The notes: generated from the sequence alone by a model not told the origin. A stretch of 64,000 nucleotides of DNA from Pseudomonadota bacterium (GCA_031119395.1 JAVHYA010000009.1:27098-91097), one strand, 5' to 3'; shown: positions 1,573 to 62,443, counted from the stretch's first letter. Program-made: numbers and translations.

Positions 1573-1625
1573 GGCCCCAATGTACGCCGATCCACGCCCG
1601 CGCGTGAGTCGACTAAAATCCCGCG

Positions 1626-1687
1626 TTCCGAGGAGCGTTGCAGCGCCGTCAGGCGTGAGGCTCGGATTTCCATGCAACCACGCTCAC
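1626..1687 (+). ncRNA. SAH riboswitch
   Basis: TCCGAGGAGCGTTGC...AGGCTCGGA...AACCACGCTCAC. TCCGAG pairs with CTCGGA and GAGCG pairs with CGCTC (pseudoknot). Lies directly upstream of ahcY. Confidence 0.88.
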
Positions 1688-1762
1688 CCGCTGTCCCCGC
1701 GGTGAGTTGCACATCTCTCCCCCGAACGCAGTGGCATCTTTCAAACCTGTTTTGGAGTCCGC

Positions 1763-3228: not shown

Positions 3229-4026
3229 ATGCGCGCAGACCAGTTGCTCGTCGACCGCGGACTGGCGGTCTCCCGTTCGCAGGCGGCCCGGCTCATCGCT
3301 GGCGGCCTGCGCTGGCGCCTGCATGCCGGTGAGGCGTGGCGGGCCGTCGCCAAGAACGGCGATGCGGTGCCCGACGGGGCCGAGCTGGAACTCGCCGACG
3401 CCGCCGAGGCGCGCTACGTCTCGCGCGGCGGGCTGAAGCTCGAGGGCGCGCTGCATGCCACGGGCATCGAGGTCGCAGGCCGACTGTGCCTGGACGTGGG
3501 GCAATCCACCGGCGGCTTCACCGACTGCCTGCTGCAGCGCGGCGCTGCGCATGTGGTGGGCATCGATGTCGGCCATGGCCAGTTGCACGAGCGGCTGCGC
3601 GCCGACGCGCGGGTGACGGCGGTCGAGCGCGTGAACGCACGCACGCTGAATGCTCCTGATTTGATAGCTGCCTGCGCAGCCGGGGTGGGCGCTGGAGCCC
3701 GATCCGACCCTGAACACGGGCTGGCCTTCGACCTGATCGTCGGCGACCTGTCCTTCATCTCGCTCACGCTGGTGCTGCCCGCGCTGGCGCCGCTGCTGGC
3801 GACAGGCGGCGACCTGCTGATGCTGGTCAAGCCGCAGTTCGAGCTGCAGCCCGCGCAGATCGGCAAGGGCGGCATCGTGCGCGACCCGGCGCTGTACGCC
3901 GTGGTCGAAGAGCGGGTGCGCGTTGCATGCGAAGGCGCCGGCCTGCGCGTGCTGAAATGGCTGGACAGTCCGATCGCGGGAGGCGACGGCAACCGCGAGT
4001 TCTTCGTCCACGCGGCGCATGCGTGA
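3229..4026 (+). CDS. tlyA: TlyA-family RNA methyltransferase, carrying an in-frame repeat segment
   Basis: MRADQLLV S4-like start, YVSRGGLKL, LDVGQSTGGFTDCLLQRGA, DLSFISL, LVKPQFE, GGDGNREF. Confidence 0.93.
   Translation: MRADQLLVDRGLAVSRSQAARLIAGGLRWRLHAGEAWRAVAKNGDAVPDGAELELADAAEARYVSRGGLKLEGALHATGIEVAGRLCLDVGQSTGGFTDCLLQRGAAHVVGIDVGHGQLHERLRADARVTAVERVNARTLNAPDLIAACAAGVGAGARSDPEHGLAFDLIVGDLSFISLTLVLPALAPLLATGGDLLMLVKPQFELQPAQIGKGGIVRDPALYAVVEERVRVACEGAGLRVLKWLDSPIAGGDGNREFFVHAAHA
3651..3714 (+). repeat. REP-like family A copy inside tlyA
   Basis: TGCTCCTGATTTGATAGCTGCCTGCGCAGCCGGGGTGGGCGCTGGAGCCCGATCCGACCCTGAA aligns with the intergenic copies. Confidence 0.85.
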
Positions 4027-9967: not shown

Positions 9968-9968
9968 T

Positions 9969-10032
9969 TGCTCTGTTTTTGATAGCTGCTTGCGCCCATC
10001 CGGCGGGCGTTGCAGCCACTTTTGATTCGAAA
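9969..10032 (+). repeat. REP-like family A copy between convergent MFS and anmK
   Basis: TGCTCTGTTTTTGATAGCTGCTTGCGCCCATCCGGCGGGCGTTGCAGCCACTTTTGATTCGAAA. Confidence 0.85.
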
Positions 10033-10034
10033 AC

Positions 10035-13992: not shown

Positions 13993-14013
13993 TTCCCGCC
14001 GAGCTGCGCGATT

Positions 14014-14078
14014 TGCTCATCTTTTGATAGCTGGTCGCGCAGGCAGGGCGCGCTCTGACGCCCGATTTCGTTCAGAAA
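14014..14078 (+). repeat. REP-like family A copy after tyrS
   Basis: TGCTCATCTTTTGATAGCTGGTCGCGCAGGCAGGGCGCGCTCTGACGCCCGATTTCGTTCAGAAA. Confidence 0.8.
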
Positions 14079-16374: not shown

Positions 16375-16811
16375 GGGCCGTGCTGCAGCGCGTGAGCGAG
16401 GCGCGCGTGGAGGTCGGCGGCGAGGTGGTCGGGCGCATCGGCCACGGCCTGCTGGTGCTGGTGTGCGCCGAGCGGGGTGACACCGAGGCCGCCGGCGAGC
16501 GCCTGCTGGCCAAGATCCTGAAACTTCGGATCTTCAGCGACGAGGCCGGCAAGATGAACCGCAGCGTGCAGGACGTGGGCGGCGGCCTGCTGCTGGTGAG
16601 CCAGTTCACGCTCGCCGCCGACGTGAGCGGCGGCAACCGGCCCAGCTTCACCGGCGCGGCGCCGCCCGACGAGGGCCGCCGGCTCTACGAGCTGTTCGTC
16701 GCGCAGGCGCGCGCGGCGCATCCGGACGTGGCGACGGGCATCTTCGCGGCCGACATGAAGGTGCACCTGGTCAACGACGGGCCGGTCACCATTCCGCTAC
16801 AGATTTCATAG
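16371..16811 (+). CDS. dtd: D-aminoacyl-tRNA deacylase
   Basis: [35 protein letters not shown]. Confidence 0.96.
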
Positions 16812-16858
16812 CTGCTGGCGCAACTGGGCCGGGCGCTGCAGCCCGATTCGACGCTCAA
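16795..16858 (+). repeat. REP-like family A copy; supplies the dtd stop codon and marks the break in the methyltransferase remnant
   Basis: CGCTACAGATTTCATAGCTGCTGGCGCAACTGGGCCGGGCGCTGCAGCCCGATTCGACGCTCAA. Confidence 0.85.
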
Positions 16859-17619: not shown

Positions 17620-17703
17620 GGTCAGTGCACGTTCGAGGAAAAAAGGGCGCGAGCGCCCGTCCGGCCTGCGCAGACAGCGACGAATTGCATGGCAGTCACG
17701 GCC

Positions 17704-18806: not shown

Positions 18807-20861
18807 ATGCTGACATGCAGGGAGTGGATGGCGGCTGGCCTGGCCGCCGTGTTGACATTGACGGGGTGCGGCGGCGGCTCGGGCGGCGGCGGCTCGGCAC
18901 CGGCGGCTGCGCAGTCGGCGGCGTCGGCGGAGGCTGCTGCGTCCACCTCGCCGGTCCAACCCGCGCAGCCGCAATCGTCGGTTGCATCGGTGTCCGCGGG
19001 CACCGCGGCGGTCGCCAGGGCTGGAACCGAACCGACCCGGTTCATCGAGGGCGCCGTCAGCGACGGCGTCGAGAAAGCCGATGTCAGCCCCTTCGTGCAT
19101 CGCGAGGCCAAGGATGCGCCAACGGCCCGCCAGATCCGGCTTGGCGTGCTCTCGGGCAGCGACGTGCCGGTGGAAAAGGCGATGTCGGGCGGGTCGGTCC
19201 CGGTCCGCATCGGGCAGGGGCGCAGCCTGAGCGACACCGCCGACAACGCGCGCGTGGCAGCCCTGCTCGACTGGAAGCCGTCGCGGCGCGGCGGCCAGGT
19301 GGCGGCGCTGCGCTTGCAGTCCGAGGGCGCCCTCGGCGTGCGCGTGGGCCTGCGGGTCTACAGCCTGCCGCTGGGTGGGCTGGTGCGTTTCCACGCCGAT
19401 GGCGGCAGCCAGGCCTATCAGGTCGCCACGCAGGAAATCCAGTCCACGATCCAGCGCAACCTCGATGCCGGCGATACCGGCGAGGATGCGCACACCTGGT
19501 GGTCGCCCAACCTGGGCGGCGATGCGATCACGGTCGAGTTCGAGGTGCCGCCTGGCGTCCCGACGAGCACCGTCGAGGTGGCGATTCCGGCCTTGTCGCA
19601 CATCTACCAGGACGCCAAGGACGTCGCCAGCATCCAGAAGGCAGGTGGTTCCTGTTCGGTCGACGTCAATTGCACGGGCGAGGCCGGTGGCGCCACCTCG
19701 CAGTCGGTGGCCCGACTGGACTTCATGGTGGGGACCTCCACCTACCAGTGCACCGGCACGCTGCTGAACGACGACAAGGCTTCGGGCACCCCCTATCTGC
19801 TGACCGCCAACCACTGCATCTCCACCCAGACGTCGGCCAGCAGCCTCGCGACGTATTGGTTCTACCGCTCGGCGAACTGCAACAGCCCGACGGTCGCCGC
19901 TGCGGCGACGCGGACGAAAACGGGTGCGACGCTGCTGTACAACAGCAGCCAGACCGATACCAGTTTCCTGCGCCTCAACGGGCCGCCGCCCGCGGGCGTT
20001 CGCTATGCCGCTTCAGCGCCGGGCGGGTTGTCCGGCACGACATCGGTCTTCAGCATCCATCACCCCGGCGGCGGCTACCAGGAGTACAGCGAGGGCGCAT
20101 CCACCGGGCCGGCCGCCAGCTGCGGCTCGGCCTATGGACCAAGCACTTGCTCCCTCGCGACGCCCGGCAACTTTCTCAAGGTGAACTGGAACGTCGGCAC
20201 CACGCTGAGCGGCAGCAGTGGCGGCGGACTGTTCATGAAGGTCAACGGAGCCCCGTACCTGGTGGGTCAGCTCTATGGCGGCTACTCGTCCTGCACGGCA
20301 CCGGACGACAACGAATACTTCGGTCGGTTCGACGTGGCGTACAACATGGCGCTCTATCAATGGCTGGGCGGCACCCCGGCCGTCCCACCGACGACGCCGG
20401 CCACTCCAAGCGTTCCGCGTACACCGATCTATCGCCTGTACAACAACAAGACGCAGACCCATTTCTACACGGCGAGTGCCGCCGAGCGCGACCGAACCAT
20501 TTCGCAATACTCGCAGTTCACCTATGAGGGAATCGGCTTCTACGCCCAGGCGGGCGCGACGTCGGGCAACACGCCGGTCTACCGCTTCTACAACACCAAG
20601 ACCGGGGCCCACTTCTATACCGTCAGCACGACGGAGCGAAACAACGTGCTCGCGACCCTGCCGCAGTACACCTACGAGGGCGTAAGCTGGTATGTCTACA
20701 TGGCGCCGAACGATCAGGCGACGGCGATGTACAGGTTCTACAACACCGACACGCAGACCCATTTCTATACCATCAGCAGCACGGAATCCCAAAACGTCCA
20801 GGCGAAGTACCCGCAGTACAAATATGAAGGCGTGGGCTACTACGCCTGGATCGCTCCCTGA
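18807..20861 (+). CDS. Lipoprotein serine endopeptidase (lysyl-endopeptidase/trypsin-like) with three C-terminal repeats (DUF5648-like)
   Basis: Lipobox LTGC; triad motifs LTANHC / TDTSFLRL / GSSGGG; three YR(L/F)YNxxTxxHFYT...YEG repeats. Confidence 0.85.
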   Translation: MLTCREWMAAGLAAVLTLTGCGGGSGGGGSAPAAAQSAASAEAAASTSPVQPAQPQSSVASVSAGTAAVARAGTEPTRFIEGAVSDGVEKADVSPFVHREAKDAPTARQIRLGVLSGSDVPVEKAMSGGSVPVRIGQGRSLSDTADNARVAALLDWKPSRRGGQVAALRLQSEGALGVRVGLRVYSLPLGGLVRFHADGGSQAYQVATQEIQSTIQRNLDAGDTGEDAHTWWSPNLGGDAITVEFEVPPGVPTSTVEVAIPALSHIYQDAKDVASIQKAGGSCSVDVNCTGEAGGATSQSVARLDFMVGTSTYQCTGTLLNDDKASGTPYLLTANHCISTQTSASSLATYWFYRSANCNSPTVAAAATRTKTGATLLYNSSQTDTSFLRLNGPPPAGVRYAASAPGGLSGTTSVFSIHHPGGGYQEYSEGASTGPAASCGSAYGPSTCSLATPGNFLKVNWNVGTTLSGSSGGGLFMKVNGAPYLVGQLYGGYSSCTAPDDNEYFGRFDVAYNMALYQWLGGTPAVPPTTPATPSVPRTPIYRLYNNKTQTHFYTASAAERDRTISQYSQFTYEGIGFYAQAGATSGNTPVYRFYNTKTGAHFYTVSTTERNNVLATLPQYTYEGVSWYVYMAPNDQATAMYRFYNTDTQTHFYTISSTESQNVQAKYPQYKYEGVGYYAWIAP

Positions 20862-21508: not shown

Positions 21509-21570
21509 GGGTGGCGGATCGGGCCGGAATGCCCGCCCCGCGGGCACCACCAGCTAACGATGCCGTCGCA

Positions 21571-28907: not shown

Positions 28908-28921
28908 GGTGCAACTCCCGT

Positions 28922-28985
28922 TGCTATGGAATCAATAGCTGCTCGCGCCCGTACGGCGGGCGCTGCGGCCACTTTTGGCTTGAAA
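28922..28985 (+). repeat. REP-like family A copy upstream of miaB
   Basis: TGCTATGGAATCAATAGCTGCTCGCGCCCGTACGGCGGGCGCTGCGGCCACTTTTGGCTTGAAA. Confidence 0.87.
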
Positions 28986-29002: not shown

Positions 29003-29464
29003 TCAGCGCGCCTCGTTCTCGGCGGCGGAGACGAAGGGCCAGAAGTTCAGGAACGGCTTGTTCAGCTGCGCACGCTCGGCGCTGGCTTCGGTGGGCGTGA
29101 GGATCCACACGTCGCTCACCAGCCCGGCCGCGTCGCGGCGGTAGTTCACCGCCAGATACTGGCCGGTGATGGTGGCCGGCTGGATGATCATGTTCTGCGT
29201 GTTGCGGATGCGCGCGCCGGGCGCCAGCCGTTCGGCGACGCCGTCGAGCTGCATCTCGGGGAAGCCGGTCACCACCATCTTCCCGCGCAGGGTGTTGATC
29301 GGGAAGTTGCGCCCGCCCAGGGCGGCTTCGTTCTGCGTCTGCGGGATCGGGTTCTGCGCCCAGGCATTCAGGCCGAAAAGGCCTGCAGCGCCCGCCAGCA
29401 TTGCGCGGGCAGCTATGGTTTTGAGAGCAATGGGGACGGTGGGGCAGCGGTTCATGGGGTTCAT
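29003..29464 (-). CDS. Exported hypothetical protein whose signal peptide is repeat-encoded
   Basis: Signal-like ALKTIAARAMLAGAAGLFGLNAWA; globular C-terminal part with normal codon bias. Confidence 0.75.
   Translation of the reverse strand: MNPMNRCPTVPIALKTIAARAMLAGAAGLFGLNAWAQNPIPQTQNEAALGGRNFPINTLRGKMVVTGFPEMQLDGVAERLAPGARIRNTQNMIIQPATITGQYLAVNYRRDAAGLVSDVWILTPTEASAERAQLNKPFLNFWPFVSAAENEAR
29367..29429 (-). repeat. REP-like family A copy encoding a signal peptide
   Basis: Minus strand TGCTCTCAAAACCATAGCTGCCCGCGCAATGCTGGCGGGCGCTGCAGGCCTTTTCGGCCTGAA. Confidence 0.85.
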
Positions 29465-32039: not shown

Positions 32040-37047
<5,008 letters not shown>

Positions 37048-40000: not shown

Positions 40001-43000
40001 GCCAGCGACATCACCCCCGCGACGACGGCGGCGGCGAACTCGCCGATGCTGTGGCCGACCAGCGCCTGCGGCGTGATGCCGGCGGCCAGGGCGCGGCGGG
40101 CCAGTGCGTATTCCAGGGCGAAGGTGGCGGGCTGGGTGACGGACGTGGGCAGCAGGGCCGTCTCGTCGTCGCCGAACATCTTCTCGCGCAGGTCGTAGGG
40201 CAGCAGCGGCGCGAAGGCGGCGAAGCATTCGTCCAGGGCCGCCTGCACCACCTCGTCGTGCACGTACAGCGTCCGGCCCATGCCGGGGTACTGGGCGCCC
40301 TGGCCGGGGAAGAGGAACACGGGCGCGTGGGCACGCGGCGCGACGCTGCCGGCAACGCGCCGTGGCGACGCGGGATCGTCCAGCGCTTCGACGGCCTGGG
40401 CGGCGCTGTCGGCCACCACCGCCAGGCGGTGCGCGAAGGCCTTGCGCCCCACGTACAGCGTGTGGGCCACGTCGCCGAGGTTCTCGTCCGGATGCGCCCG
40501 CAGGTGGTCGGCGAGCCGCGCGGCCGCCTGGTCGAGCGCGGCCGGCGAGCGGGCCGACAGCACCAGCAGTTGCGGGCCGGCGACGGCTTCCGACGGCTGC
40601 ACGGCCGGTGCTTCCTCGAGGATCACGTGGGCGTTGGTCCCGCCCACGCCGAAGGAACTCACGCCGGCGCGCCGCGGCGCGTCGGGCGTGCGTGGCCAGG
40701 CGCCCAGCACGCTCTGGACCCGGAACGGGGTCGACGCGAAATCGATCGCCGGGTTGGGCGACTCGAAGTGCAGCGTGGCCGGCAGCTGCTCCGTGTGCAG
40801 CGCCAGCGCCGTCTTGATGACGCCGGTCGCGCCGGCCGCCATCAGCAGGTGGCCGACGTTGCTCTTGACCGAGCCGAGGGCACAGAAACCGGTGTCGGCG
40901 GTCTGCTGCGCGTAGCTGCGGGCCAGCGCCTCCACTTCGACCGGGTCGCCCATCGGCGTGGCGGTGCCGTGCGCCTCGACGTAGGAGATGCTCCGTGCGT
41001 CGACGCCCGCGGACGCGAGCGCCGCGGAGATGACGGCCACCTGGCCATCGACGCTGGGCGCGGTGAAGCTGGCCTTGACGGCGCCGTCGTTGTTGACGCC
41101 GACGCCCCGCACCGTGGCATAGATGACGTCGCCATCGGCCTGCGCGTCCGACAGGCGCTTGAGCAGCACCACCGCGGCGCCGTCGCTGAAGACGGTGCCG
41201 CCGGCCTGCGCGTCGAAGCTGCGCGTGCGGCCGTCGGGCGAGAGCATCGCGCCCTCCTGGTGCACGTAGCCGCTGTTCGGCGGGCAGGTGATGGCGATGC
41301 CGCCCGCCAGCGCCATGTCGCACTGGCCCGAGCGCAGGGCATGGAAGGCCTGCGCCAGGGCCACCAGCGAGGTGGAGCAGGCGGTGTTCAGGCTGATCGC
41401 CGGGCCGGTCAGGTTCAGGCGGTTGGCCACGCGCGTGGCCAGGTAGTCCTTCTCGTTGCCGAGCATCACCGTGAACTCGCCCACCGAGTCGATGAGCTCC
41501 GGGCGCGGCATCAGGTGGCGCTGGAAGTACGTGCCGTTGTACATGCCGGCGTACACGCCGACCGGCTCGGTCTGCTGGTCGGGGGCGTAGCCGGCGCGCT
41601 CCAGGCACTCCCAGCAGATCTCCAGGAAGATGCGCTGCTGCGGGTCCATCAGCGTGGCTTCCTTCGGGTTGATGCCGAAGAAGGCGGCGTCGAAGTCCTC
41701 CACGCCGTCGATCACGCCCCGGGCGCGCACGTAGGCGGGGTCGTCGCGCAGCGCGGCGCTCACACCGGCATCGAGCTGCGCGTCGTCGAAGAGGCGAATG
41801 CCGTCGCGGCCTGCGCAGAGGTTGGCCCAGAAGGCGTCGACGTCGGCGGCGCCGGGGAAGCGGCCGGCCATGCCGACGATGGCGATCGGCTCCTGCGAGC
41901 CGATGGCGGCGGAGCGCGGGGCACGGGGCGCGGCCTGCGCGACCGGCTCGCCCGAGAGCTCGCGCGCGATGGCCGCAGGGGTCGGGTCGCGGAAGAACAG
42001 GTTGGTCGACAGCCGGCGGCCAGCGGCGGCCTGCAGGTCGGCGATCACCTTCAGCACGCGCAGCGAATCGCCGCCGAGGTCGAAGAAGTTGTCGATGCGG
42101 CCCACGCGGTCCATGCCGAGGGCGCGTGCGAACGCGGTGCACACCCGCTGCTCGGCCTCGTCGCGCGGCTCCTCGAAGGGCTGCGCGATGTCCGGCCGCT
42201 CGGCGGGCGGCGTGGGCAGCGCGCGCCGGTCGATCTTGCCGTTGGGCGACAGCGGCATCGCGTCCAGCACGACGAACTGCCCGGGCACCATGTAGGGCGG
42301 CAGCAGCGCCTGGAGGTGCTGGCGCAGCATGTCGCGCGACGGTCCGGTGCCGTGGCCCGAGACGTAGGCGACCAGGCGCGCCTCGCCGCCGCCGTCGCGC
42401 GGTGCGAGCACCGCCGCCTCGCGCACGGACGGGTGCTGCAGCAGCGCGCTCTCGATGTCGCCGAGCTCGACGCGGAAGCCGCGCACCTTGACCTGGTGGT
42501 CGTTGCGGCCGAGGTATTCGATCTCGCCATCGGCGCGCCAGCGGCCGATGTCGCCGGTCTTGTAGAGCCGGCCGCCTTCGCCGGGCGCGAAGCGGTCGGC
42601 CACGAAGCGCTCCTGCGTCAGCTCGGGCCGATGCAGGTAGCCGCGCGCGACGCCCATGCCGCCGATGAAGATCTCGCCGGCCGCGCCGATGGGCAGCTCG
42701 CGGCCCTGCGGGTCGAGCACATGGATGCGGTTGTTGGCGATCGGTGTGCCGATGGTGGGCAGCGGCTCCCACGCAGCCGGGTCGGCGGCCAGCGTCAGGG
42801 CCGTCACCACGTGGCTTTCGGTCGGCCCGTACTGGTTGTGCAGGCGGCAGCCCGGCAGGCGCGTGAACAGGGCGCGGATCGCCGGGCTGGCGTGCAGTTG
42901 CTCGCCGGCGGTCATCACGTCCTGCAGCGGCGGCAGCGGGTCGCCGGACGCCGCGGCGTATTCGGCGATGTTCTGCAGCGCGATGAAGGGCAGGAACAGC

Positions 43001-44454
43001 CGCTGGACGGACTGCTCGCGCATCAGCTGCAGCAAGGCCTGCGGATCGCGGCGCGTCGCTTCGTCGAGCAGCACCAGGGTGCCGCCCACCGACAGGGTCG
43101 CGAAGATCTCCTGGAAGGCGACGTCGAAACCCAGCGCGGCGAACTGCAGCGTGCGCTGCGGTGCGGGCACGCGCGGGTGCTTCGCCTGCCAGCGCAGCAG
43201 GTTGACCAGGCCGCGGTGCGGCATGGCCACGCCCTTGGGCTGGCCGGTCGAGCCGGAGGTGAAGATGACGTAGGCCAGGTGGTCCGGGCCGGGCCGCACC
43301 GCGGGCGGCAGCGCTTCGCCGGAGGGGGTGTCGGCCGCGTCGCCATCGAGCACGACCACCGGCGCATCGGAGGCCGGCAGCTGAGCGCGCAGCGCCGATT
43401 GCGTCAGCACCGCCGCAGGACGCGCGCCCTGAAGAATGAGCAGTGTGCGCTCGGGCGGGTGATGCGGGTCGAGCGGCACATAGGCGCCGCCCGCCTTGAG
43501 CACCGCCAGCAGGGCCACGACCATCTCCAGGCTGCGCTCCACATAGAGCGCCACCGGCACGTCAGGGCCGACGCCGAGGCGGCGCAGCTGCGTGGCCAGT
43601 GCCTGCGCGCGTGCATCGAGTTCGCCGTAGCTGAGGCTCTGCGTGCCCATCTGCACGGCGGTCGCCGCGGGCTGGCGCCGCACCTGTGATTCGACCAGCT
43701 CGTGCACCAGCGCGTCGCCGCCAAGATCCTCGGCGGTGGCGTTGAAGCGGTCGAGCAGCGCGCGCTCGGCCGGGCCCGCCAGCGGCAGGTCGCCGACGCG
43801 CACAGCGCCGTCCGCACACAGGCCGTCCAGCGCCTGCGACACGGCGCCGGCCCAGCGGGCGACCGCGGCGCCGTCGAAGCGCGACGGGTCGAAGGCCAGG
43901 ACCGCCGACCCGCCGGACTCGGGCAGGCGCAGTTCGATCGAGCCGGGCTGCGCCGCAACGCCGGAGGACGCCTCGCCCCACGCCAGCACGGCGGTCACGC
44001 CTTCGGCGGTGGCTTGCGTCGCTTCGGACGCGGCGGCGCCGGCGTGCTCCAGCGCATCGCGGCAGCGGGCCAGCCATTGGTCCACGGTGGGATCGTCGTC
44101 GAGCGAGGCGAGCAGCGTCGTCCGCACGCCGTCCCGGCGTCCATGGACAACGAAGGTGTCCTGGCCCGACAGGCGCCAGAGCACGAGTGCCCAGGCAGCC
44201 AGCCAGAGCGCAGCGTCTTGCGCCGGGCCCTGTGGGCGCCATGCGGCTGGCGGTGCAACGAGCTGCGTTGCCGGGGCCGGTGAACCCGGCGAAGCGTCGC
44301 GCGATCGGGGCGGCAGGTCGAGGGCGTGAGCGGCGCGGGCCAGGAGGGCGGCGGCGTCGCGGTCGGATGGCCCGCGACCTGACGTGGCGGGCTGGGCCAG
44401 CTGCACCTGTGCGGGCGACCCGGTGGTCGAACCTGCCGGCTCTTGCTTGTTCAT
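37048..44454 (-). CDS. Hybrid NRPS-PKS: (partial C)-A-T-KS-AT-ACP-class III aminotransferase
   Basis: YVIFTSGSTGQPKG; FFDLGGDSL; DPQQR, NTACSTSL, EAHGTAT, KSNVGH; GHSIG and HAFHS (malonyl-type AT); LGLDSL; IFDEVITGFR and TYGKVIGGG. Alternative starts at 44547 and 44601. Confidence 0.93.
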
Positions 44455-48461: not shown

Positions 48462-49589
48462 ATGACCCAGGAGCCCGGCGCCTCGAGCGCCTCCCCCTCG
48501 GCCAGCCCCTCGGACCGGATGGCCCGGATTATCGACGCCGCCCTCGCGCGCGCCGGCGGCTGGCTGCCCTTCGACCAGTTCATGGCGCTGGCCCTGTACG
48601 CGCCCGGCGCCGGCTACTACGCGCACGGCAGCCGCAAGTTCGGCCGCATGCCCGCCTCGGGCAGCGACTTCGTGACGGCGCCCGAGCTCACGCCGCTCTT
48701 CGGCCAGACCGTGGCCGAGCAGGTGCGCGAAGCGCTGGCGCAGACCGGCACGCAGGAGGTCTGGGAGTTCGGGGCCGGCTCGGGCGCCCTCGCGGCGCAG
48801 TTGCTGCAAGCCCTGGGCGACGCGGTGCGGCGCTACACCATCGTCGACCTGTCGGGCAGCCTGCGCGCCCGCCAGCAGGAGGCCCTGGCCGCCTGGGGCG
48901 ACCGGGTGCGGTGGGTGGACCAGCTGCCCGAGCGCTTCGAGGGCGTGGTCGTCGGCAACGAGGTGCTCGACGCCATGCCGGTCAAGCTGCTGGTGCGCAA
49001 GGAGCGCCGCTGGAACGAGCGCGGCGTCTACCGCACGCCCGAGGGGCCGCTGGCCTGGATCGACTGGCCCACCGAGCTGCGCCCGCCGGTCGAGATCGAG
49101 AGCGACCACGACTACCTCACCGAGATCCATCCCCAGGCCAGGGCCTGGATCGGCACGCTGGCCGAACGGCTGCAGCGCGGCGCGGTCTTCCTCTTCGACT
49201 ATGGCTTCCCCGAAGCGGAGTACTACCACCCGCAGCGCCACATGGGCACCGTGATGTGCCACCAGGGCCACCGGGCCGACAGCGACCCGCTCGGCGCCGT
49301 GGGCGACAAGGACATCACCGCCCACGTCGACTTCACCGGCATCGCGCTGGCCGGGCAGGACGCCGGTCTGCACGTGCTGGGCTACACCAGCCAGGCGCGC
49401 TTTCTCATCAACACCGGTCTGCTATCGAAAATGGAGCAGTCCACGCCCGCCCAGCGGGCGCTGGCGGCCCATTTGATCCATGAACACGAGATGGGCGAGC
49501 TGTTCAAGGTGATCGGCTTCGCGGCCGCCGGCAGCGTGCCGTGGGACGCGCTGGGCTTTCGCGAAGGCGACCGCAGCCACACCCTTTGA
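48462..49589 (+). CDS. SAM-dependent methyltransferase (MidA/NDUFAF7 family)
   Basis: FDQFMALALYAPGAGYY, DFVTAPE, EFGAGSG, GNEVLDAMP, DYG, DITAHVDF, EMGELFKV. Confidence 0.93.
   Translation: MTQEPGASSASPSASPSDRMARIIDAALARAGGWLPFDQFMALALYAPGAGYYAHGSRKFGRMPASGSDFVTAPELTPLFGQTVAEQVREALAQTGTQEVWEFGAGSGALAAQLLQALGDAVRRYTIVDLSGSLRARQQEALAAWGDRVRWVDQLPERFEGVVVGNEVLDAMPVKLLVRKERRWNERGVYRTPEGPLAWIDWPTELRPPVEIESDHDYLTEIHPQARAWIGTLAERLQRGAVFLFDYGFPEAEYYHPQRHMGTVMCHQGHRADSDPLGAVGDKDITAHVDFTGIALAGQDAGLHVLGYTSQARFLINTGLLSKMEQSTPAQRALAAHLIHEHEMGELFKVIGFAAAGSVPWDALGFREGDRSHTL
49420..49484 (+). repeat. REP-like family A copy inside the MidA-type gene
   Basis: TGCTATCGAAAATGGAGCAGTCCACGCCCGCCCAGCGGGCGCTGGCGGCCCATTTGATCCATGAA. 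Confidence 0.75.
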
Positions 49590-51734: not shown

Positions 51735-53248
51735 TCTGCTATTGAATTCGTAGCGCTTCGCGCAAGCGGGGCGGGCGTTGCAGCCCGATTCGGCTCCGAA
51801 ACCGGGGTGCGCGCCGCCACTGCCGACGCGATCTCCCCGAGTCGCCGCAGCCCCGCCTCGATGGCCGGCGACCAGGGCCAGCCGCAGTTGATGCGCAGGC
51901 AGTGGTCGAAGCGCGCCGAGTTCGAGAACAGCGTGCCCGGCGCGAACAGGATGTGCTCGCGCAGCGCGGCGTCGAACACCGGCACCGAGGACAGCCGCTC
52001 GGGCAGCTCCACCCACAGCTGAAGCCCGCCCGGCGGCAGGTTGAGGCGCGTGCCGGCCGGAAAGTGCTGGGCGATGGCGTCGGCCGTGCGTTCGCGCTGC
52101 ACGCGCAGCCGGTCGCGCAGCTGGCGCAGGTGCCGGTCGTAGGCCCCGGTGGCCATGAACTGGCCCGCCGCCCACTGCGAGAGTTCCTCGTTGCTGCGCG
52201 TCTGTGCGTACTTGAGCATCTCCACCCGTGCGTGCCAGCGGCCGGCCGTGATCCAGCCCAGCCGCAGCCCCGGCGCCAGCACCTTGTGCAGCGAGGCGCA
52301 GTGGATCACGTGGCCGCCGCGGTCGAAGGCCTTGATCGCGCGCGGCGGCACCGGGGCGTCGAGCAGCTCGGTGTACGTGTCGTCCTCGATGAGCGGGATG
52401 CCGTGCCGTTCGCACAGGCGCACCAGCCGCTCCTTGTGCGCGTCGGGCATCACGCTGCCCAGCGGGTTCTGCAGGTGCGGCACCACGATGACCGCCTTGA
52501 TGTTGCCGTAGGCGCCGATCGCCATCTCCAGCGCCTCCACCGACAGGCCGGTCTGCGGGCTGGTGGGGATCTCCAGCGCGCGCATGCCCAGGCTCTCCAG
52601 CACCTGCAGCAGGCCGTAGAAGGTGGGCGATTCCACCGCCACCGTGTCGCCCGGCTGCGCCACCGCGCGCAGCGCGAGGTTCAGCGCCTCGATGCAGCCG
52701 TTGGTGGGCAGCACCTCGTCGGGCGAGAGGGTCATGCCGGCCTGCAGCGCCCGCTTGGCCACCGCTTCGCGAAAGGGCGTGCGGCTGCGCGAGGGCGCGG
52801 CGGTGGTCAGCATCTCCGGCCGCTGGCGCAAAAGGCGCGCCATCGCGGCGCGCAGCGCCTCGCCGGGGTACAGCGCGGGGGCGCCGCGGGCGATCGACAG
52901 GTCCAGCCGCACCTCGCCGTAGCGCCGGCGCATGACGAAGTCCGACACCTTCTCGTGGATGCCGACGAACTGCGCCGGGTCGGGCGCGCGGTCGGTGGCC
53001 GGCTCGTCCATCGGCGGCGTCGCCAGGCGGCGCGGGCGGCGCACGAAGTAGCCCGATCGGTCGCGCGCCTCGGCCCAGCCCTCGCTCTCGAGCGTGCGGC
53101 ACAGCTGCAAGGCGGTCGACAGGCTCACGCCGTGGCGCTTCATCAGATCGCGCAGCGAGGGCAGGCGGTCGCCGGGCTGCAGCGATCCGGCGCGGATCGC
53201 ATCGAGGTAGTGCTGGGCCAGCTGGCGGTAGCGCGGGGGCGTGTCCAT
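51707..53248 (-). CDS. MocR/GntR-family PLP-dependent transcriptional regulator
   Basis: GDRLPSLR, GVSLST, GYFV; TNGCIEA, VESPTFY, QNPLG, IEDDTY, SLHKVLAPGLRLGW. Alternative start at 53293. Confidence 0.93.
   Translation of the reverse strand: MDTPPRYRQLAQHYLDAIRAGSLQPGDRLPSLRDLMKRHGVSLSTALQLCRTLESEGWAEARDRSGYFVRRPRRLATPPMDEPATDRAPDPAQFVGIHEKVSDFVMRRRYGEVRLDLSIARGAPALYPGEALRAAMARLLRQRPEMLTTAAPSRSRTPFREAVAKRALQAGMTLSPDEVLPTNGCIEALNLALRAVAQPGDTVAVESPTFYGLLQVLESLGMRALEIPTSPQTGLSVEALEMAIGAYGNIKAVIVVPHLQNPLGSVMPDAHKERLVRLCERHGIPLIEDDTYTELLDAPVPPRAIKAFDRGGHVIHCASLHKVLAPGLRLGWITAGRWHARVEMLKYAQTRSNEELSQWAAGQFMATGAYDRHLRQLRDRLRVQRERTADAIAQHFPAGTRLNLPPGGLQLWVELPERLSSVPVFDAALREHILFAPGTLFSNSARFDHCLRINCGWPWSPAIEAGLRRLGEIASAVAARTPVSEPNRAATPAPLARSATNSIADQSTSASAA
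51737..51801 (+). repeat. REP-like family A copy read antisense as the MocR C-terminal tail
   Basis: TGCTATTGAATTCGTAGCGCTTCGCGCAAGCGGGGCGGGCGTTGCAGCCCGATTCGGCTCCGAAA. Confidence 0.8.
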
Positions 53249-57823: not shown

Positions 57824-58747
57824 ATGGACCTCGACGCCCTGCGCATCTACCTGCTGGTGGCCGAATCGGCCAGCTTCACCCGTGCCGCCGAGCGGCTGGG
57901 CCTGACGCGGGCGCGCGTGTCCGCCGTCGTGCAGCAACTGGAAGCCGAGCTGGGCACGCGCCTCCTGCAGCGCACGACGCGCAGCGTGCGCGTGACGCCC
58001 GACGGGCAGCTCTTCGCCGAACGCGCCCAGGCGCTGGTGGGCGAGGCCGACGAGCTGCAGGCGCTGTTCCAGCGCGTGCCGGCGGCGTTGCGCGGGCGGC
58101 TGCGGGTCGACATGCCCGGCCAGCTGTCGAGCCAGGTGCTGATTCCGCGGCTGCCCGAGTTCCTCGCCGCCCACCCGCAGATCGAGCTGGAGCTCAGCAG
58201 CACGGACCGCCGGGTCGACCTGGTGCACGAGGGCTTCGACTGCGTGATCCGCGCCGGCGCGCTGCGCGAGTCGGGGCTGGTGGCGCGGCCCCTGGGCCTG
58301 CTGTCGCAGATCAACGTGGCCAGCCCGGCCTACATCGCCGCCCACGGCATGCCGCGCACGCTGGAGGACCTGGCGCGGCATCGCCTGGTGCGCTATTCGT
58401 CCACGCTGGGCGGCGCGGCGCCCGGATGGGAGTACACGACGCCCGAGGGACCGCAGATGCTGCCGATGGCCGCGGTGCTCACCGTCAACAACACCTTCGC
58501 CTACGAGTCGGCGTGCCTCGCGGGGCTGGGCATCATCCAGGCGCCCGCGCTGGGTCTGCAGGGGTGGATCGACAGCGGCCGGCTGGTGGAACTGCTGCCC
58601 CGGTACCGCGCCGATCCGCTGCCGGTGACGCTGCTCTACGCCCACCGCCGCCAGGTCGCGCGGCGCGTGCAGGCCTTCATGGACTGGGTGGCGGCGGTGA
58701 TGGCCGAGGTGCTGTCGCCGGCGCCCGATCTGCTATCGAAACAATAG
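57824..58747 (+). CDS. LysR-family regulator (CrgA-like)
   Basis: SFTRAAERL HTH, RLLQRTTR, LRGRLRVD, VDLVHEGFDCVIR. Confidence 0.95.
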   Translation: MDLDALRIYLLVAESASFTRAAERLGLTRARVSAVVQQLEAELGTRLLQRTTRSVRVTPDGQLFAERAQALVGEADELQALFQRVPAALRGRLRVDMPGQLSSQVLIPRLPEFLAAHPQIELELSSTDRRVDLVHEGFDCVIRAGALRESGLVARPLGLLSQINVASPAYIAAHGMPRTLEDLARHRLVRYSSTLGGAAPGWEYTTPEGPQMLPMAAVLTVNNTFAYESACLAGLGIIQAPALGLQGWIDSGRLVELLPRYRADPLPVTLLYAHRRQVARRVQAFMDWVAAVMAEVLSPAPDLLSKQ

Positions 58748-58793
58748 CTGCTCGCGCCCGCCGGATGGGCGCTGCAGCCTCATTCGGCTCGAA
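58731..58793 (+). repeat. REP-like family A copy supplying the LysR stop codon
   Basis: TGCTATCGAAACAATAGCTGCTCGCGCCCGCCGGATGGGCGCTGCAGCCTCATTCGGCTCGAA. Confidence 0.88.
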
Positions 58794-58826
58794 TCGGTGG
58801 GCCGCGGCGCCGTGGGGCGCGGGTGC

Positions 58827-60215
<1,389 letters not shown>

Positions 60216-60252
60216 GCGGTGTCCAGATGGGGCGGCGGGCGGGTGGAGGGGA

Positions 60253-60993
60253 TCAGGACCGCAGCAGCGTGTCGCGCAGCGTCTGCAGCCAGGCGTGCAC
60301 GGCCTGCGGGCCCTCCAGCCGCTGCGCCGCGCGCGTGCTGCCCGGGCCGATCTTGATGCCCATGCCGCCGGGGCGCGACTGCACCACGGCGAAGCCGGTC
60401 TCGTCGGTGGTGTCGTCGCCCGCGAAGACCGGGTGGCGACCCTCGAAGGGCGCTTCCTTCAGGAAGGCATCGATCGCGATGCCCTTGTTCACGCCGGCCG
60501 GCTTGATCTCGACCACGCACTTGCCGTGCAGCAGTTCGAACTGCGGCTGCGTGCCGACCACCTCGGCCATGGTGTCCAGGCACAGCTGCTCCAGCGCCGG
60601 CGCCAGCCGGTAGTGCAGCGCGATGGCGGCATGCTTGCGCTCCACCAGCAGGCCGGCGTGGCGCGAGGCCAGGGCGTTGGCGGCGTCGAGCACGCCGGTG
60701 AGGTCGGGCGCGGCGGCTTCCTGCATGCGGCCGTCGGCATCGCGGCGCTGCACGCCGTGTTCACCGGCGGCCGGCAGGCGCAGGGGCGCGAGGAAACGGT
60801 CCAGCACGTCGATGGGGCGGCCCGACACGACGGCCAGCGCGCCGCCCAGGAGCTCGTGCAGTTCGATCAGCAGCGGCACCAGGCCGGGAGGCACTTCGAC
60901 GGCTTCGGGTGTTTCGGCGATCGCGACGAGCGTGCCGTCGAAATCGAGGAAGAGGGCCGCATCGCGGCCCGGGAGTGGCGGGGACGTCTGCAT
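60253..60993 (-). CDS. otsB: Trehalose-6-phosphate phosphatase
   Basis: LFLDFDGTL, VSGR, GEHG, VNKG, FAGDDTTDE. Confidence 0.96.
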   Translation of the reverse strand: MQTSPPLPGRDAALFLDFDGTLVAIAETPEAVEVPPGLVPLLIELHELLGGALAVVSGRPIDVLDRFLAPLRLPAAGEHGVQRRDADGRMQEAAAPDLTGVLDAANALASRHAGLLVERKHAAIALHYRLAPALEQLCLDTMAEVVGTQPQFELLHGKCVVEIKPAGVNKGIAIDAFLKEAPFEGRHPVFAGDDTTDETGFAVVQSRPGGMGIKIGPGSTRAAQRLEGPQAVHAWLQTLRDTLLRS

Positions 60994-61079
60994 CTGCGGG
61001 CACCTTAGCACGGGCCGCGGCGCCCGCGCGTCGGTCAAAGCCGGCAGTTGCCGCGGGCCCGCGCGGCTGCGCGAGAGGG

Positions 61080-62339
61080 TCAGAGCCCGGCCGCCGCCAC
61101 GGCCGTCACGCGCGCGGCATGGATCGCCTGCCCGATCTGCGGCCCCTTGGCGCCGCGCGCCGCCGCCTCGCGCGCGATGCCCTCGGTGGCCACCGACTGC
61201 GCGGCCTCCAGAGCGCGCAGCAGGCGCGGCCGCTGCGGGTAGGGCGCGTCTTCCAGGCCCAGGCGTCCACGGGCATCGCACTCGCAGGCCAGCAGCGCCG
61301 CGTCGAAGCGCTGCGGCTTGCGGAAGGCATCGCAGCGCTCGAGCAGGCGCACCAGCGCGGCGGCCTCGAAGCCTTCGCTGCGGTGGATGTTGCCGTGCTC
61401 GCGCGCCACCACCTCGGCCAGTTCGCGCACCTCGGTCGGCACGCGCCAGCGCTCGCACACGCCGGCCAGCAGCCGGGCGCTGCGCTGCTCGTGGCCGATG
61501 TGGCGCGGCAGCACGTCGGCCGGCGTGGTGGCCTTGCCCAGGTCGTGCGTGAGGCAGGCGAAGCGCACCGGCAGGGGCGCCGCCAAGCGCGCGCTCATGT
61601 CCAGCACCATCATCAGGTGCACGCCGGTGTCGCCCTCGGGGTGGTGCTGCGGCGGCTGCGGGACGCCCCACAGCGCGTCGACCTCGGGCAGCAGCACCTT
61701 CAGCGCCCCGCAGGCGCGCAGCACCTCGAACATGCGCGAGGGCTTCGCCTCCATCAGCCCGCGCGCGAGCTCCTGCCACACGCGCTCCGGCACGAGGGCA
61801 TCGACCTCGCCGTCGGCGACCATGCCGCGCATCAGCGCCATCGTCTCGGGCGCCACGGTGAAGTCGTGGAAGCGGGCCGCGAAGCGCGCCAGCCGCAGGA
61901 TGCGCACCGGGTCTTCGCGGAAGGCGTCGGTCACATGGCGCAGCACCTTGCGCTGCAGGTCGCCGCGGCCGCCATGGGGGTCGATCAGCGCCGCAGTTTC
62001 AGGGTCGAAATCGCCCGTGGCGCCCGCCACGCCTGCGGGAACCGCTATGGAATTGATAGTGAGGTCGCGCCGCGCGAGGTCCTGCTCCAGCGTCACGTCG
62101 GGCGCCGTGTGGACGGCGAAGCCGCGGTAGCCGGGGCCGCTCTTGCGCTCGGTGCGGGCCAGCGCGTGCTCCTCGTGCGTCTGCGGATGCAGGAACACGG
62201 GGAAGTCGCGCCCGACCGGCACGAAGCCCTGCGCCACCATCTCATCGGGCGTGGCGCCGACCACGACCCAGTCGCGGTCGGACACGCTCAGGCCGAGCAG
62301 GCGGTCGCGCACGGCGCCGCCGACGAGGTAGATCTCCAT
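61080..62339 (-). CDS. cca: Multifunctional CCA-adding enzyme with HD domain, carrying a repeat-derived insertion
   Basis: YLVGGAVRDRLLG, DRDWVV, DLARRDLTINSIA, FREDPVRILR, HPEGDTGVH, THDLGK. Confidence 0.97.
   Translation of the reverse strand: MEIYLVGGAVRDRLLGLSVSDRDWVVVGATPDEMVAQGFVPVGRDFPVFLHPQTHEEHALARTERKSGPGYRGFAVHTAPDVTLEQDLARRDLTINSIAVPAGVAGATGDFDPETAALIDPHGGRGDLQRKVLRHVTDAFREDPVRILRLARFAARFHDFTVAPETMALMRGMVADGEVDALVPERVWQELARGLMEAKPSRMFEVLRACGALKVLLPEVDALWGVPQPPQHHPEGDTGVHLMMVLDMSARLAAPLPVRFACLTHDLGKATTPADVLPRHIGHEQRSARLLAGVCERWRVPTEVRELAEVVAREHGNIHRSEGFEAAALVRLLERCDAFRKPQRFDAALLACECDARGRLGLEDAPYPQRPRLLRALEAAQSVATEGIAREAAARGAKGPQIGQAIHAARVTAVAAAGL
61997..62061 (-). repeat. REP-like family A copy inside cca
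   Basis: Minus strand CACTATCAATTCCATAGCGGTTCCCGCAGGCGTGGCGGGCGCCACGGGCGATTTCGACCCTGAAA. Confidence 0.75.
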
Positions 62340-62443
62340 GGACCGAGTGTAGGAAGGCTGCGCATGCGAGGCCGCCGGGGGAACGCCGGACTTCTCCGCC
62401 GCCTCCAACACGCTCCGCAAAACCATTCCTACAAGGAGCTTCC

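What the first reader, a model, noticed from the sequence alone, without database searches (positions are those of the whole stretch)
61997..62061. Repeat fused into the RRDLTIN signature of the CCA-adding enzyme
The repeat's 5' hairpin (ACTATCAATTCCATAGC) itself encodes TINSIA of the conserved RRDLTIN(A)IA motif. The rest adds VPAGVAGATGDFDPE before AALIDPHGG. Enterobacterial CCA, from recall, has only a few residues between INAIA and IDP. An element overlapping a conserved motif of a core tRNA enzyme suggests either targeting of a hairpin-like site or recoding after insertion.
Basis: partly seen in the sequence, partly recalled or inferred. Interest (0 to 1): 0.65.

Follow-up and report, generated by a model that had tools for sequence, protein, structure and literature searches.

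The report
Selfish repeat embedded in CCA enzyme
A 65-base selfish DNA repeat sits in frame inside the gene for the enzyme that adds CCA to tRNAs, encoding part of a catalytic motif and a 12-residue longer loop; it is an old insertion shared by many related bacteria and one of about 66 such in-gene copies in this genome.

Summary
Confirmed. Window 61998-62059 (minus strand) is a full-length, in-frame copy of a ~65-nt REP-like repeat with about 590 copies in this genome. A profile built without it scores it at 40 bits. 5000 synonymous recodings of the same peptide reach at most 23 bits.

The repeat's AT-rich first hairpin encodes TINSIA of motif B (RRDLTIN), using codons that are almost absent elsewhere (ACT 0.6% of Thr, ATA 0.1% of Ile). 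The rest adds 12 residues between motifs B and C.

The insertion is not recent. The same site and frame are occupied across core Comamonadaceae, including Polaromonas, Rhodoferax, Acidovorax and Simplicispira. Basal genera and other Burkholderiales families keep the short, E. coli-like loop.

Lineages that lost the repeat family (Pseudacidovorax, Variovorax) keep the loop as ordinary GC-rich coding sequence. LeuRS, DnaE2 and a third gene (C37_57430) show the same pattern; five more sites show at least the GC-rich fossil state in Pseudacidovorax.

About 66 of 593 copies in this genome lie in frame in genes, and 28 use the cca frame. This resembles Rickettsia palindromic elements, so I file it as a new member of a known kind. 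Concerted evolution with the genomic family is suggested but not proven.

The parts
61080..62339 (-). cca, a class II tRNA nucleotidyltransferase (CCA-adding enzyme), 419 aa, with PolyA_pol head, RNA-binding and HD domains
   Evidence: ORF and translation. Pfam PF01743, PF12627 and PF01966. AF2 model has pLDDT 93 and matches solved CCA-adding enzymes at TM 0.5-0.64. It is the only cca-type match in the genome; the one other match is weak (E 8e-6, 29% identity) and was not examined.
61998..62059 (-). Full-length in-frame copy of the ~65-nt REP-like repeat (profile columns 5-66 of 67)
   Evidence: nhmmer 40.0-40.2 bits, E about 1e-9 genome-wide. Seed-only profile E=7.8e-7. CM 49.8 bits. Synonymous-recoding null reaches at most 23.2 bits.
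62043..62060 (-). Codons T94-A99 (ACT ATC AAT TCC ATA GCG = TINSIA), the end of motif B, encoded by the repeat's first AT-rich hairpin (stem CTAT/ATAG)
   Evidence: Sequence. ACT is 0.6% of Thr codons, ATA 0.1% of Ile and AAT 6.4% of Asn in 880 safe ORFs of this genome. The same rare codons occur in 45-46 of 98 Comamonadaceae cca genes.
62001..62042 (-). Codons 100-113 (VPAGVAGATGDFDP): the repeat-encoded part of the loop, which accounts for the 12 extra residues
   Evidence: Alignments with empty-site orthologs. The peptide fits the family's usual product in this frame, xIAxxAxGxGAxGxFxxE.
61977..62000 (-). Codons 114-121 (ETAALIDP): the native remainder of the loop and the start of motif C, homologous to E-A-G-S-I-V-D-P of empty-site alleles
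   Evidence: Alignments; D120 and P121 are invariant.
62001..62009 (-). TTCGACCCT (F111-D112-P113), the 3' end of the repeat. It forms a direct repeat with ATCGACCCC at 61977-61985 (I119-D120-P121). Deleting the 24 nt between them gives exactly the 27-residue Acidovorax/Simplicispira allele.
   Evidence: Sequence comparison of L001 with L017, L019 and L020; the deletion itself is inferred.
3650..3714 (+). Another in-frame family copy, inside tlyA (FtsJ-type methyltransferase), in the same frame as in cca
   Evidence: nhmmer 48 bits. ORF and GC3 test. Pfam FtsJ spans it. Orthologs were compared.
58730..58793 (+). Nearest family copy to cca (61 bits); its position relative to genes was not checked. 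Further copies lie at 9968-10033, 14013-14077, 16796-16857, 28921-28985, 49419-49480, 51736-51800 (+) and 17632-17694, 21510-21570, 29367-29430 (-).
   Evidence: the repeat finder family D1/D4; nhmmer table for contig C89 (window position = C89 position - 27097).

Best explanation
A copy of a REP-like palindromic repeat entered cca in an ancestor of the core Comamonadaceae and has been translated ever since as part of the enzyme. The family has three hairpins, about 590 copies here, and is confined to Comamonadaceae.

How it entered (inferred): the element did not simply add 62 nt. Its first hairpin took the place of the similar native sequence for T-I-N-A-I-A, and its 3' part displaced two or three loop codons, for a net gain of 36 nt. 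This was viable because the repeat's stop-free frame natively encodes A-[IMT]-x-[SL]-I-A followed by an Ala/Gly-rich peptide. Only Ala to Thr separates it from motif B. The rest lands in the hairpin turn between motif B (RRDLTIN) and motif C (DPxGGxxDL) of the head domain.

Effect on the protein (inferred): the insert is a tolerated, fast-evolving loop, not a new function.

Later history (partly shown): lineages remodelled it by in-frame indels, giving segments of 27 to 49 residues. Where the repeat family still thrives, the cca copy keeps repeat-like nucleotides, including very rare codons. Where the family died out, the segment was recoded into ordinary GC-rich codons and survives only as a peptide fossil.

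Most likely cause of this dependence (inferred, about 50%): occasional gene conversion from genomic copies, filtered by selection on the protein.
For: The copy is genuine.

It is translated and tolerated:
- It is the only cca-type match in the genome, and the ORF is intact in all 104 loci that could be parsed.
- All loop length variants are whole codons.
- The AF2 fold is intact, with the loop at pLDDT 88-92, and matches solved CCA enzymes.
- The insert falls between RRDxTIN and DxxGG in alignments to 1VFG and 3H37.

It is ancient and has a single site:
- Profile hits begin at the same codon in own-clade, Simplicispira, Diaphorobacter, Acidovorax, Polaromonas and Rhodoferax genes, at 15-55 bits.
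- The tree puts all of them in one 88-row clade with support 94. Two basal genera, g4 and g9, lack the insert on the tree, as do all 7 other-family orthologs; a third genus, g2, lacks it by direct sequence inspection.

The frame is pre-adapted: 28 of 66 in-frame copies use the same orientation and frame and give peptides such as DAIDSIAVCADVAGVAAVF. Hosts confirmed by Pfam are LeuRS, MutL, TruB, DnaE2, TlyA and an ABC ATPase.

Maintenance depends on the family:
- Hairpin kept versus family abundant gives 24/8/1/36 (abundant and kept / abundant and lost / scarce and kept / scarce and not kept).
- Eight other in-frame sites were compared. In LeuRS, DnaE2 and C37_57430 all three expected states are seen: repeat-like here and in G022, GC-rich fossil in Pseudacidovorax G003/G011. 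C142 is repeat-like in G022 but has a broken hairpin here. Carboxylase, YjeF, LysE and TlyA show only the fossil state in Pseudacidovorax (TlyA differs in G022; no G022 comparison for the other three).
- In 5 of 5 orthologous pairs each copy lies relatively closer to its own genome's family profile.
- Within the own clade the segment diverges 10-27% against 5-8% for the rest of cca, yet stays recognisable between genera.
- The two rare synonymous sites that pair in the stem are never found singly against the other site's preferred codon: 0 T/C and 0 C/A states in 98 genes.
Against: - The phylogenetically independent test of the family/hairpin association has only 5 safe pairs (3.8 same way, 0 opposite, p about 0.125).
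- Eight family-rich genomes have lost the hairpin anyway.
- The cca copy in G022 keeps CGCAG where that genome's family has CGCTTG. However, the G022 consensus would put TGA in frame there.
- The best donor-like match of the cca copy in its own genome is only 75-77% identical, the 10th percentile for family members. There is therefore no sign of a recent conversion.
- Shared mutation bias within a genome could mimic the 5 of 5 result.
- A few Ramlibacter genes inside the insert-bearing clade have the short loop. This requires either a secondary deletion or a wrongly resolved branch.
- The position of the loop relative to the active site rests on homology and an AF2 secondary-structure string. 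No distances were measured.
Confidence: 0.72

Rival explanations
1. Recurrent independent insertion. The native TINAIA-coding sequence resembles the repeat's first hairpin and acts as a hot spot. Different genera would then have acquired their cca copies separately, or had them replaced by new copies, rather than inheriting one.
For: - Empty-site alleles read ACG ATC AAT GCG ATC GC, itself a CGATC/GATCG palindrome resembling GCTATC..GATAGC.
- The second repeat-like site in cca also starts at a native x-I-A.
- Orthologous in-frame copies in DnaE2 and C142 carry genome-specific family features.
Against: - The same start codon, frame and downstream x-A-L-I-D-P junction occur in all lineages.
- Loop peptides are homologous even where the nucleotides have decayed (PAELA..D.EP..T.AL.DP against PAGVAGATGDFDPETAAL).
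- One clade on the tree holds all of them.
- The family leaves no target-site duplications and shows no flank preference.
Confidence: 0.13
2. Nucleotide-level purifying selection. The in-gene copy, or at least its first hairpin, is a functional DNA or RNA site recognised by a factor that acts on all family members, such as the RAYT-like transposase or a nucleoid or RNA-binding protein. It decays only when that factor or need is lost.
For: - Rare codons ACT/ATA are kept in 45 of 98 genes.
- The two rare third positions pair with each other, and complementary states are seen 63 times against 31.9 expected. They include ACG..ATC, which also pairs.
- Retention is tied to family abundance.
Against: - The cca copy as RNA folds no better than shuffles (z -0.42), whereas the consensus gives z -3.2.
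- The segment evolves 2-3.5 times faster than the rest of cca within the own clade.
- Eight family-rich genomes lost the hairpin.
- The excess of complementary states is dominated by one inherited state.
- The RAYT-like gene is also present in genomes without the family.
Confidence: 0.12
3. Chance or peptide-driven resemblance. An Ala/Gly-rich loop in a GC-rich genome merely looks like a GC-rich repeat.
For: The loop is Ala/Gly-rich, and some orthologs have the loop without any resemblance to the repeat.
Against: - 40 bits against a maximum of 23.2 in 5000 synonymous recodings.
- Genome-wide E of 1e-7 to 1e-9 from profiles that exclude the site.
- The match is full length and ungapped, and includes an AT-rich hairpin made of codons used at 0.1-6%.
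Confidence: 0.01
4. Reverse direction: the repeat family was seeded from this segment of cca.
For: The family and the cca insert have nearly the same taxonomic range.
Against: - Empty-site alleles show the segment is an addition to cca.
- The element has the three-hairpin anatomy of REP-type repeats, and most copies carry features (G at column 4, CGC codons, in-frame stops in other frames) that the cca copy lacks.
- The cca copy is a below-average family member, with 0.61 mean identity against 0.68.
Confidence: 0.02

Closest known systems
Rickettsia palindromic elements (RPEs; Ogata et al. 2000, Claverie and Ogata 2003; cited from my own knowledge and as summarised in PMC3733652)
   Same: Both are dispersed palindromic repeats with many copies inserted in frame in conserved, evidently functional protein genes, including translation and replication enzymes. 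In both, the encoded peptide sits in loops or linkers, and old copies decay into ordinary coding sequence.
   Different: There is no sequence relationship to RPEs. The host here is a free-living, 68-70% GC betaproteobacterial family rather than a reduced AT-rich endosymbiont. The element is shorter, about 65 nt. This copy overlaps a catalytic motif instead of lying wholly in a loop. Retention of repeat-like nucleotides tracks the survival of the family in the genome.
REP elements of the GTAG/CGTC super-families and their RAYT transposases (Di Nocera et al. 2013, PMC3733652; Nunvar et al. 2010 from my own knowledge)
   Same: A GC-rich imperfect palindrome is preceded by a conserved tag ([A/G]TAGC). 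There are hundreds of mostly extragenic copies and no target duplications. A single-copy Y1 (IS200-like) transposase gene has a copy next to it. PMC3733652 also reports REPs within coding regions.
   Different: The tag is ATAG in most copies, not GTAG. The element is composite, with an extra AT-rich hairpin that pairs with the tag and a third hairpin. The RAYT link is unproven, because the gene also occurs in relatives that lack the family.
BRE, Beta-proteobacterial repeat element (Hot et al. 2011, PMC3110155)
   Same: It is a small repeat reported in Bordetella and some Comamonadaceae, with some copies entirely within coding sequences.
   Different: BRE is about 90 bp, occurs in tandem arrays (VNTR-like), is present in Bordetella and is most abundant in Polaromonas JS666. 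The family here is absent from all other Burkholderiales families sampled and is nearly absent from JS666, with 5 hits. It is a different element.
Class II CCA-adding enzymes with solved structures (1MIV, 3H37, 1VFG, 6QY6, 4X4W)
   Same: Same fold and motifs A-E; the segment between motif B and motif C is a short hairpin in all of them.
   Different: The segment here is 8-12 residues longer and is encoded by a repeat.

Membership tests
In-frame palindromic repeats of the RPE kind | Dispersed multi-copy repeat with hairpin potential | tested here: met
   593 copies at E<1e-4. The consensus folds into three hairpins, z -3.18.
In-frame palindromic repeats of the RPE kind | Copies lie in frame inside conserved, intact protein genes | tested here: met
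   66 of 593 copies are in ORFs with coding GC3 in the same frame on both sides. Pfam domains flank or span the copy in cca, LeuRS, MutL, TruB, DnaE2, TlyA and an ABC ATPase.
In-frame palindromic repeats of the RPE kind | Encoded peptide lies in a surface loop or linker and leaves the fold intact | tested here: inconclusive
   The AF2 fold is intact with pLDDT 93, and the insert lies between motifs B and C. No coordinates were available to measure exposure or distance to the active site.
In-frame palindromic repeats of the RPE kind | Sequence homology to Rickettsia RPE families | not tested
   No RPE sequences were compared. Composition and length differ, so homology is not expected.
REP / RAYT system | GC-rich imperfect palindrome of 20-40 bp | tested here: met
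   CGCGCCCG-N5-CGGGCGC core.
REP / RAYT system | Conserved GTAG (or CGTC) tetranucleotide at one end | tested here: not met
   T23, A24, G25 and C26 are nearly invariant, but the preceding base is mostly A (ATAG). GTAG occurs in a minority of copies.
REP / RAYT system | Cognate single-copy Y1 transposase flanked by REPs | tested here: inconclusive
   There is one PF01797 gene at G000:C15:39183-39509 with one weak copy (29 bits) just 3' of it. The gene is also present in relatives without the family.
REP / RAYT system | No target-site duplication | tested here: met
   Flank k-mer sharing equals the shuffled-pair control in 299 full-length copies.
MITE | Terminal inverted repeats and target-site duplication | tested here: not met
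   No TSD was found. The two ends (TTGCTAT.. / ..GGCTTGAAA) are not inverted repeats of each other.
Class II CCA-adding enzyme | Motif A (GGxVRD..DxD), motif B (RRD), motif C (DxxxGxxD), motif D (EDxxR), and an HD domain in the proteobacterial type | tested here: met
   GGAVRD, DRD, RRDLTIN, DPHGGRGDL and REDPVR are visible in P0001. These residues are invariant in 30 orthologs. Pfam finds PolyA_pol, RNAbd and HD.
BRE (PMC3110155) | About 90 bp, tandem arrays, present in Bordetella and abundant in Polaromonas JS666 | tested here: not met
   The unit is 65 nt and copies are dispersed. There are 0 hits in other Burkholderiales families and 5 in JS666. No BRE sequence was available for direct alignment.

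The most novel reading that the evidence does not exclude
The in-frame copies, including the one that supplies TINSIA of motif B in cca, are not inert fossils. They are still members of the repeat family and are repeatedly overwritten by gene conversion from extragenic copies, with selection on the protein filtering which tracts survive. Part of a catalytic motif of a core tRNA enzyme would then co-evolve with a selfish repeat family across a whole bacterial family. It would become ordinary coding DNA only when the repeat family goes extinct, as in Pseudacidovorax, Variovorax and Polaromonas JS666.
Probability: 0.4. Interest if true: 0.7.

Novelty: new member of a known kind. Interest (0 to 1): 0.55.

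Why it matters
In-frame palindromic repeats are textbook material only for Rickettsia. This looks like a second, much larger natural system in free-living, culturable, GC-rich bacteria (Polaromonas, Acidovorax, Rhodoferax and others).

About a tenth of the copies sit inside housekeeping genes, and matched lineages have lost the family. That gives side-by-side live and fossil states of the same insertions. The system therefore allows direct tests of three questions:
- how selfish DNA becomes protein sequence;
- whether coding copies undergo concerted evolution with non-coding ones;
- how much insertion the loop between motifs B and C of the CCA-adding enzyme tolerates.

For annotation, it explains odd rare-codon islands and variable loops in Comamonadaceae core genes.

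Tried and rejected
- **Rfam:** no family matches the repeat, with gathering thresholds on the whole window or the permissive search on 58600-62400.
- **BRE of Hot et al. 2011:** a different element (distribution).
- **Target-site duplications and flank preferences:** none.
- **RNA structure of the cca copy:** not better than shuffles, so I did not build a structure-based argument. RNAalifold kept only 3 pairs for the model, so R1 is in effect a sequence model.
- **RAYT presence against family presence:** uninformative, because the gene is nearly universal in the family.
- **Recent conversion donor in the own genome:** none found; best identity is 75-77%.
- **G022 family-specific TT at columns 30-31:** not shared by the G022 cca copy.
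- **Independent-contrast test of family abundance against hairpin retention:** the direction is consistent, but there are too few safe pairs for significance.
- a first translation was off by one base. One model search exceeded the size limit. The motif regex failed to parse cca in six of the 110 loci, and these were left out.

Full report
**1. The observation**

cca lies on the minus strand at window 61080-62339 and encodes 419 residues. Residues 90-124 read RRDLTINSIAVPAGVAGATGDFDPETAALIDPHGG.

The window holds a repeat family of about 65 nt (repeat finder families D1 and D4; copies listed). Its consensus is TTGCTATcGAATtGATAGCTGCtCGCGCcCGccGGaCGGGCGCTGCAGgCCGATTTGGCTTGAAA, and it folds into three hairpins with z -3.2.

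- nhmmer finds 593 copies at E<1e-4 (619 at E<1e-3) in the 5.1-Mb genome.
- A profile made from ten other window copies hits the cca site at E=7.8e-7 for the whole genome.
- An iterated profile from which the cca copy was removed gives 40.0 bits over columns 5-66 of 67, ungapped.
- A covariance model from 89 other copies gives 49.8 bits.
- I recoded residues 89-120 synonymously 5000 times with the genome's codon usage. The scores were 4.9 +/- 4.5 bits, with a maximum of 23.2.

The match is therefore real, full length and not a consequence of the peptide. The hairpin codons ACT, AAT and ATA make up 0.6%, 6.4% and 0.1% of Thr, Asn and Ile codons in 880 safe ORFs of this genome.

**2. What the repeat family is**

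- It has no Rfam match.
- It has no target-site duplications and no flank preference.
- It has a nearly invariant TAGC next to a GC-rich palindrome.
- It is confined to Comamonadaceae. It is abundant in the window's own clade and in four other sampled genera, present at 17 hits in a fifth, nearly absent from the sister group Pseudacidovorax, and absent from 16 other Burkholderiales families.
- A single RAYT-like Y1 transposase gene has a weak copy just downstream. The same gene also exists in genomes without the family, so the link is open.
- It is REP-like but does not carry the canonical GTAG tag.
- It is not the BRE element of Hot et al. (PMC3110155).

**3. In-frame copies are common**

66 of 593 copies lie in open frames whose flanks on both sides have coding-type GC3 in the same frame. 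Of these, 28 use the orientation and frame seen in cca, giving peptides of the form xA[IMT]x[SL]IAxxAxGxGAxGxFxxE. Another 25 use one frame of the opposite strand, giving ..KPxAAAPAxPAQxAIxxIA.

Pfam confirms real hosts with domains on both sides of, or spanning, the copy: cca, LeuRS, MutL, TruB, DnaE2, TlyA and an ABC ATPase.

In the cca frame the hairpin normally encodes A-[IMT]-x-[SL]-I-A. TINSIA therefore differs from a typical product, such as AIDSIA in DnaE2, essentially by Ala to Thr.

**4. Effect on CCA**

The insert lies between motif B (RRDLTIN) and motif C (DPxGGxxDL).

- Seven orthologs from other families, three basal Comamonadaceae genera and some Ramlibacter have 23 residues from RRD to DPxxG, against 35 here.
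- Solved class II enzymes are 8 residues shorter in this segment.
- AF2 predicts the normal fold with mean pLDDT 93, and 88-92 in the loop. The model matches solved CCA-adding enzymes.
- cca is single-copy in the sense that the genome has no second cca-type match; the only other match is weak (E 8e-6, 29% identity) and was not examined.
- The ORF is intact in all 104 parsed loci, and all length variants are whole codons.

I infer a translated, tolerated loop. Exposure and distance to the active site were not measured.

**5. Age and history**

Profile hits start at the same codon in the own clade (40-55 bits) and in Simplicispira, Diaphorobacter, Acidovorax, Polaromonas, Rhodoferax and others (15-44 bits).

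On a cca tree all insert-bearing genes fall in one clade of 88 rows with support 94.

Empty and filled alleles align as ..TINAIA-QD-EAGSIVDP against ..TINSIA-VPAGVAGATGDFDP-ETAALIDP. The net gain is 36 nt for a roughly 62-nt element, so repeat sequence replaced about 24-26 nt of native sequence, including the TINAIA codons (counting is mine).

The 27-residue allele of Acidovorax and Simplicispira equals the 35-residue allele minus the 24 nt between the direct repeats TTCGACCC and ATCGACCC. Pseudacidovorax has PAELADIEPLRTDALVDP, which is homologous at the peptide level but written in GC-rich codons.

**6. What keeps it repeat-like**

In 46 hairpin-bearing cca genes, the rest of the gene uses ATA for 7 of 291 Ile codons and ACT for 16 of 600 Thr codons.

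Retention of the CTAT/ATAG stem goes with abundance of the family in the same genome:

| Family in genome | Hairpin kept | Hairpin lost or no insert |
|---|---|---|
| Abundant | 24 | 8 |
| Scarce | 1 | 36 |

With phylogenetic control only 5 safe pairs exist. About 3.8 go the same way and 0 go the opposite way, p about 0.125.

Other evidence bearing on this:

- Other in-frame sites partly repeat the pattern. LeuRS, DnaE2 and C37_57430 are repeat-like here and in G022 of another genus, but are GC-rich fossils of similar length in Pseudacidovorax G003 and G011. C142 is repeat-like in G022 but has a broken hairpin (GATCGC) here. Carboxylase, YjeF, LysE and TlyA show only the fossil state in Pseudacidovorax; TlyA has an unrelated larger insert in G022 and the other three have no G022 comparison.
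- In 5 of 5 orthologous pairs each copy is relatively closer to its own genome's family profile. Three G022 copies score absolutely better on the G022 profile.
- Within the own clade the segment differs by 10-27%, against 5-8% for the rest of cca. Short-term constraint is weak while long-term resemblance persists.
- The two rare third positions pair in the stem and are never found singly against the other site's preferred codon: 0 T/C and 0 C/A states in 98 genes.

These points favour concerted evolution by gene conversion.

Against it:
- No recent donor exists in this genome; the best identity is 75-77%.
- The G022 cca copy lacks that genome's CGCTTG signature. That signature would create an in-frame TGA.
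- Shared mutation bias could contribute to the 5 of 5 result.

**7. Verdict**

This is an RPE-like case in a newly described REP-like family of Comamonadaceae. It is ancient rather than recent, and it is one of about 66 in-frame copies in this genome. Intragenic REPs and RPEs are already known (PMC3733652), so the kind is not new.

Three things are new: the host group, the overlap with a catalytic motif, and the live-versus-fossil contrast that points to concerted evolution of coding copies.

Noticed in passing
L019:2617-2687; L066, L064, L080 and L055 at about 1724-1775; own gene about window 61116-61187 (-): There is a second in-frame repeat-like segment near the C terminus of cca (QSVATSVIAAHAASKGVTGQKVGE). 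It scores 25-32 bits in Simplicispira, Diaphorobacter, Ramlibacter and Rhodoferax. In this genome the homologous peptide (QSVATEGIAREAAARGAKGPQIG) is written in GC-rich codons and gives no hit. Ramlibacter PS3R-8 keeps this hairpin although its genome has 0 family hits.
   Followed up: partly
Genome-wide, e.g. G000:C85:1130-1188 (LeuRS), C97:28792-28856 (MutL), C107:73457-73521 (TruB), C83:4468-4531 (DnaE2), C126:10165-10229 (ABC ATPase): About 66 of 593 family copies are in frame inside genes. 53 of them use just two of the six frames, both of which read the AT-rich hairpin as A-x-x-x-I-A.
   Followed up: partly
G000:C15:39183-39509 (outside the window): A single-copy RAYT-like Y1 (IS200-type) transposase gene has a 29-bit family copy immediately 3' at C15:39837-39892.
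   Followed up: partly
L158 (G022:C1, tlyA ortholog): At the tlyA site where this genome has the repeat, genus g8 carries an insert about 200 nt larger, acidic (D/E-rich) and unrelated to the repeat. That loop appears to be a recurrent insertion point.
   Followed up: no
window 1624-1692 (+): SAH riboswitch (RF01057), 53.4 bits, above the gathering score.
   Followed up: no
window 17632-17694 (-): A further family copy (37 bits) that the repeat finder did not list.
   Followed up: no
window 20406-20770 (+): Three direct repeats of 65 nt spaced exactly 150 nt apart (YRFYN..THFYT-type), probably a tandem 50-residue protein repeat.
   Followed up: no
window 34090-35182 and 42192-43302: Two segments about 8.1 kb apart share 70-79% identity over about 1 kb, probably paralogous genes.
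   Followed up: no
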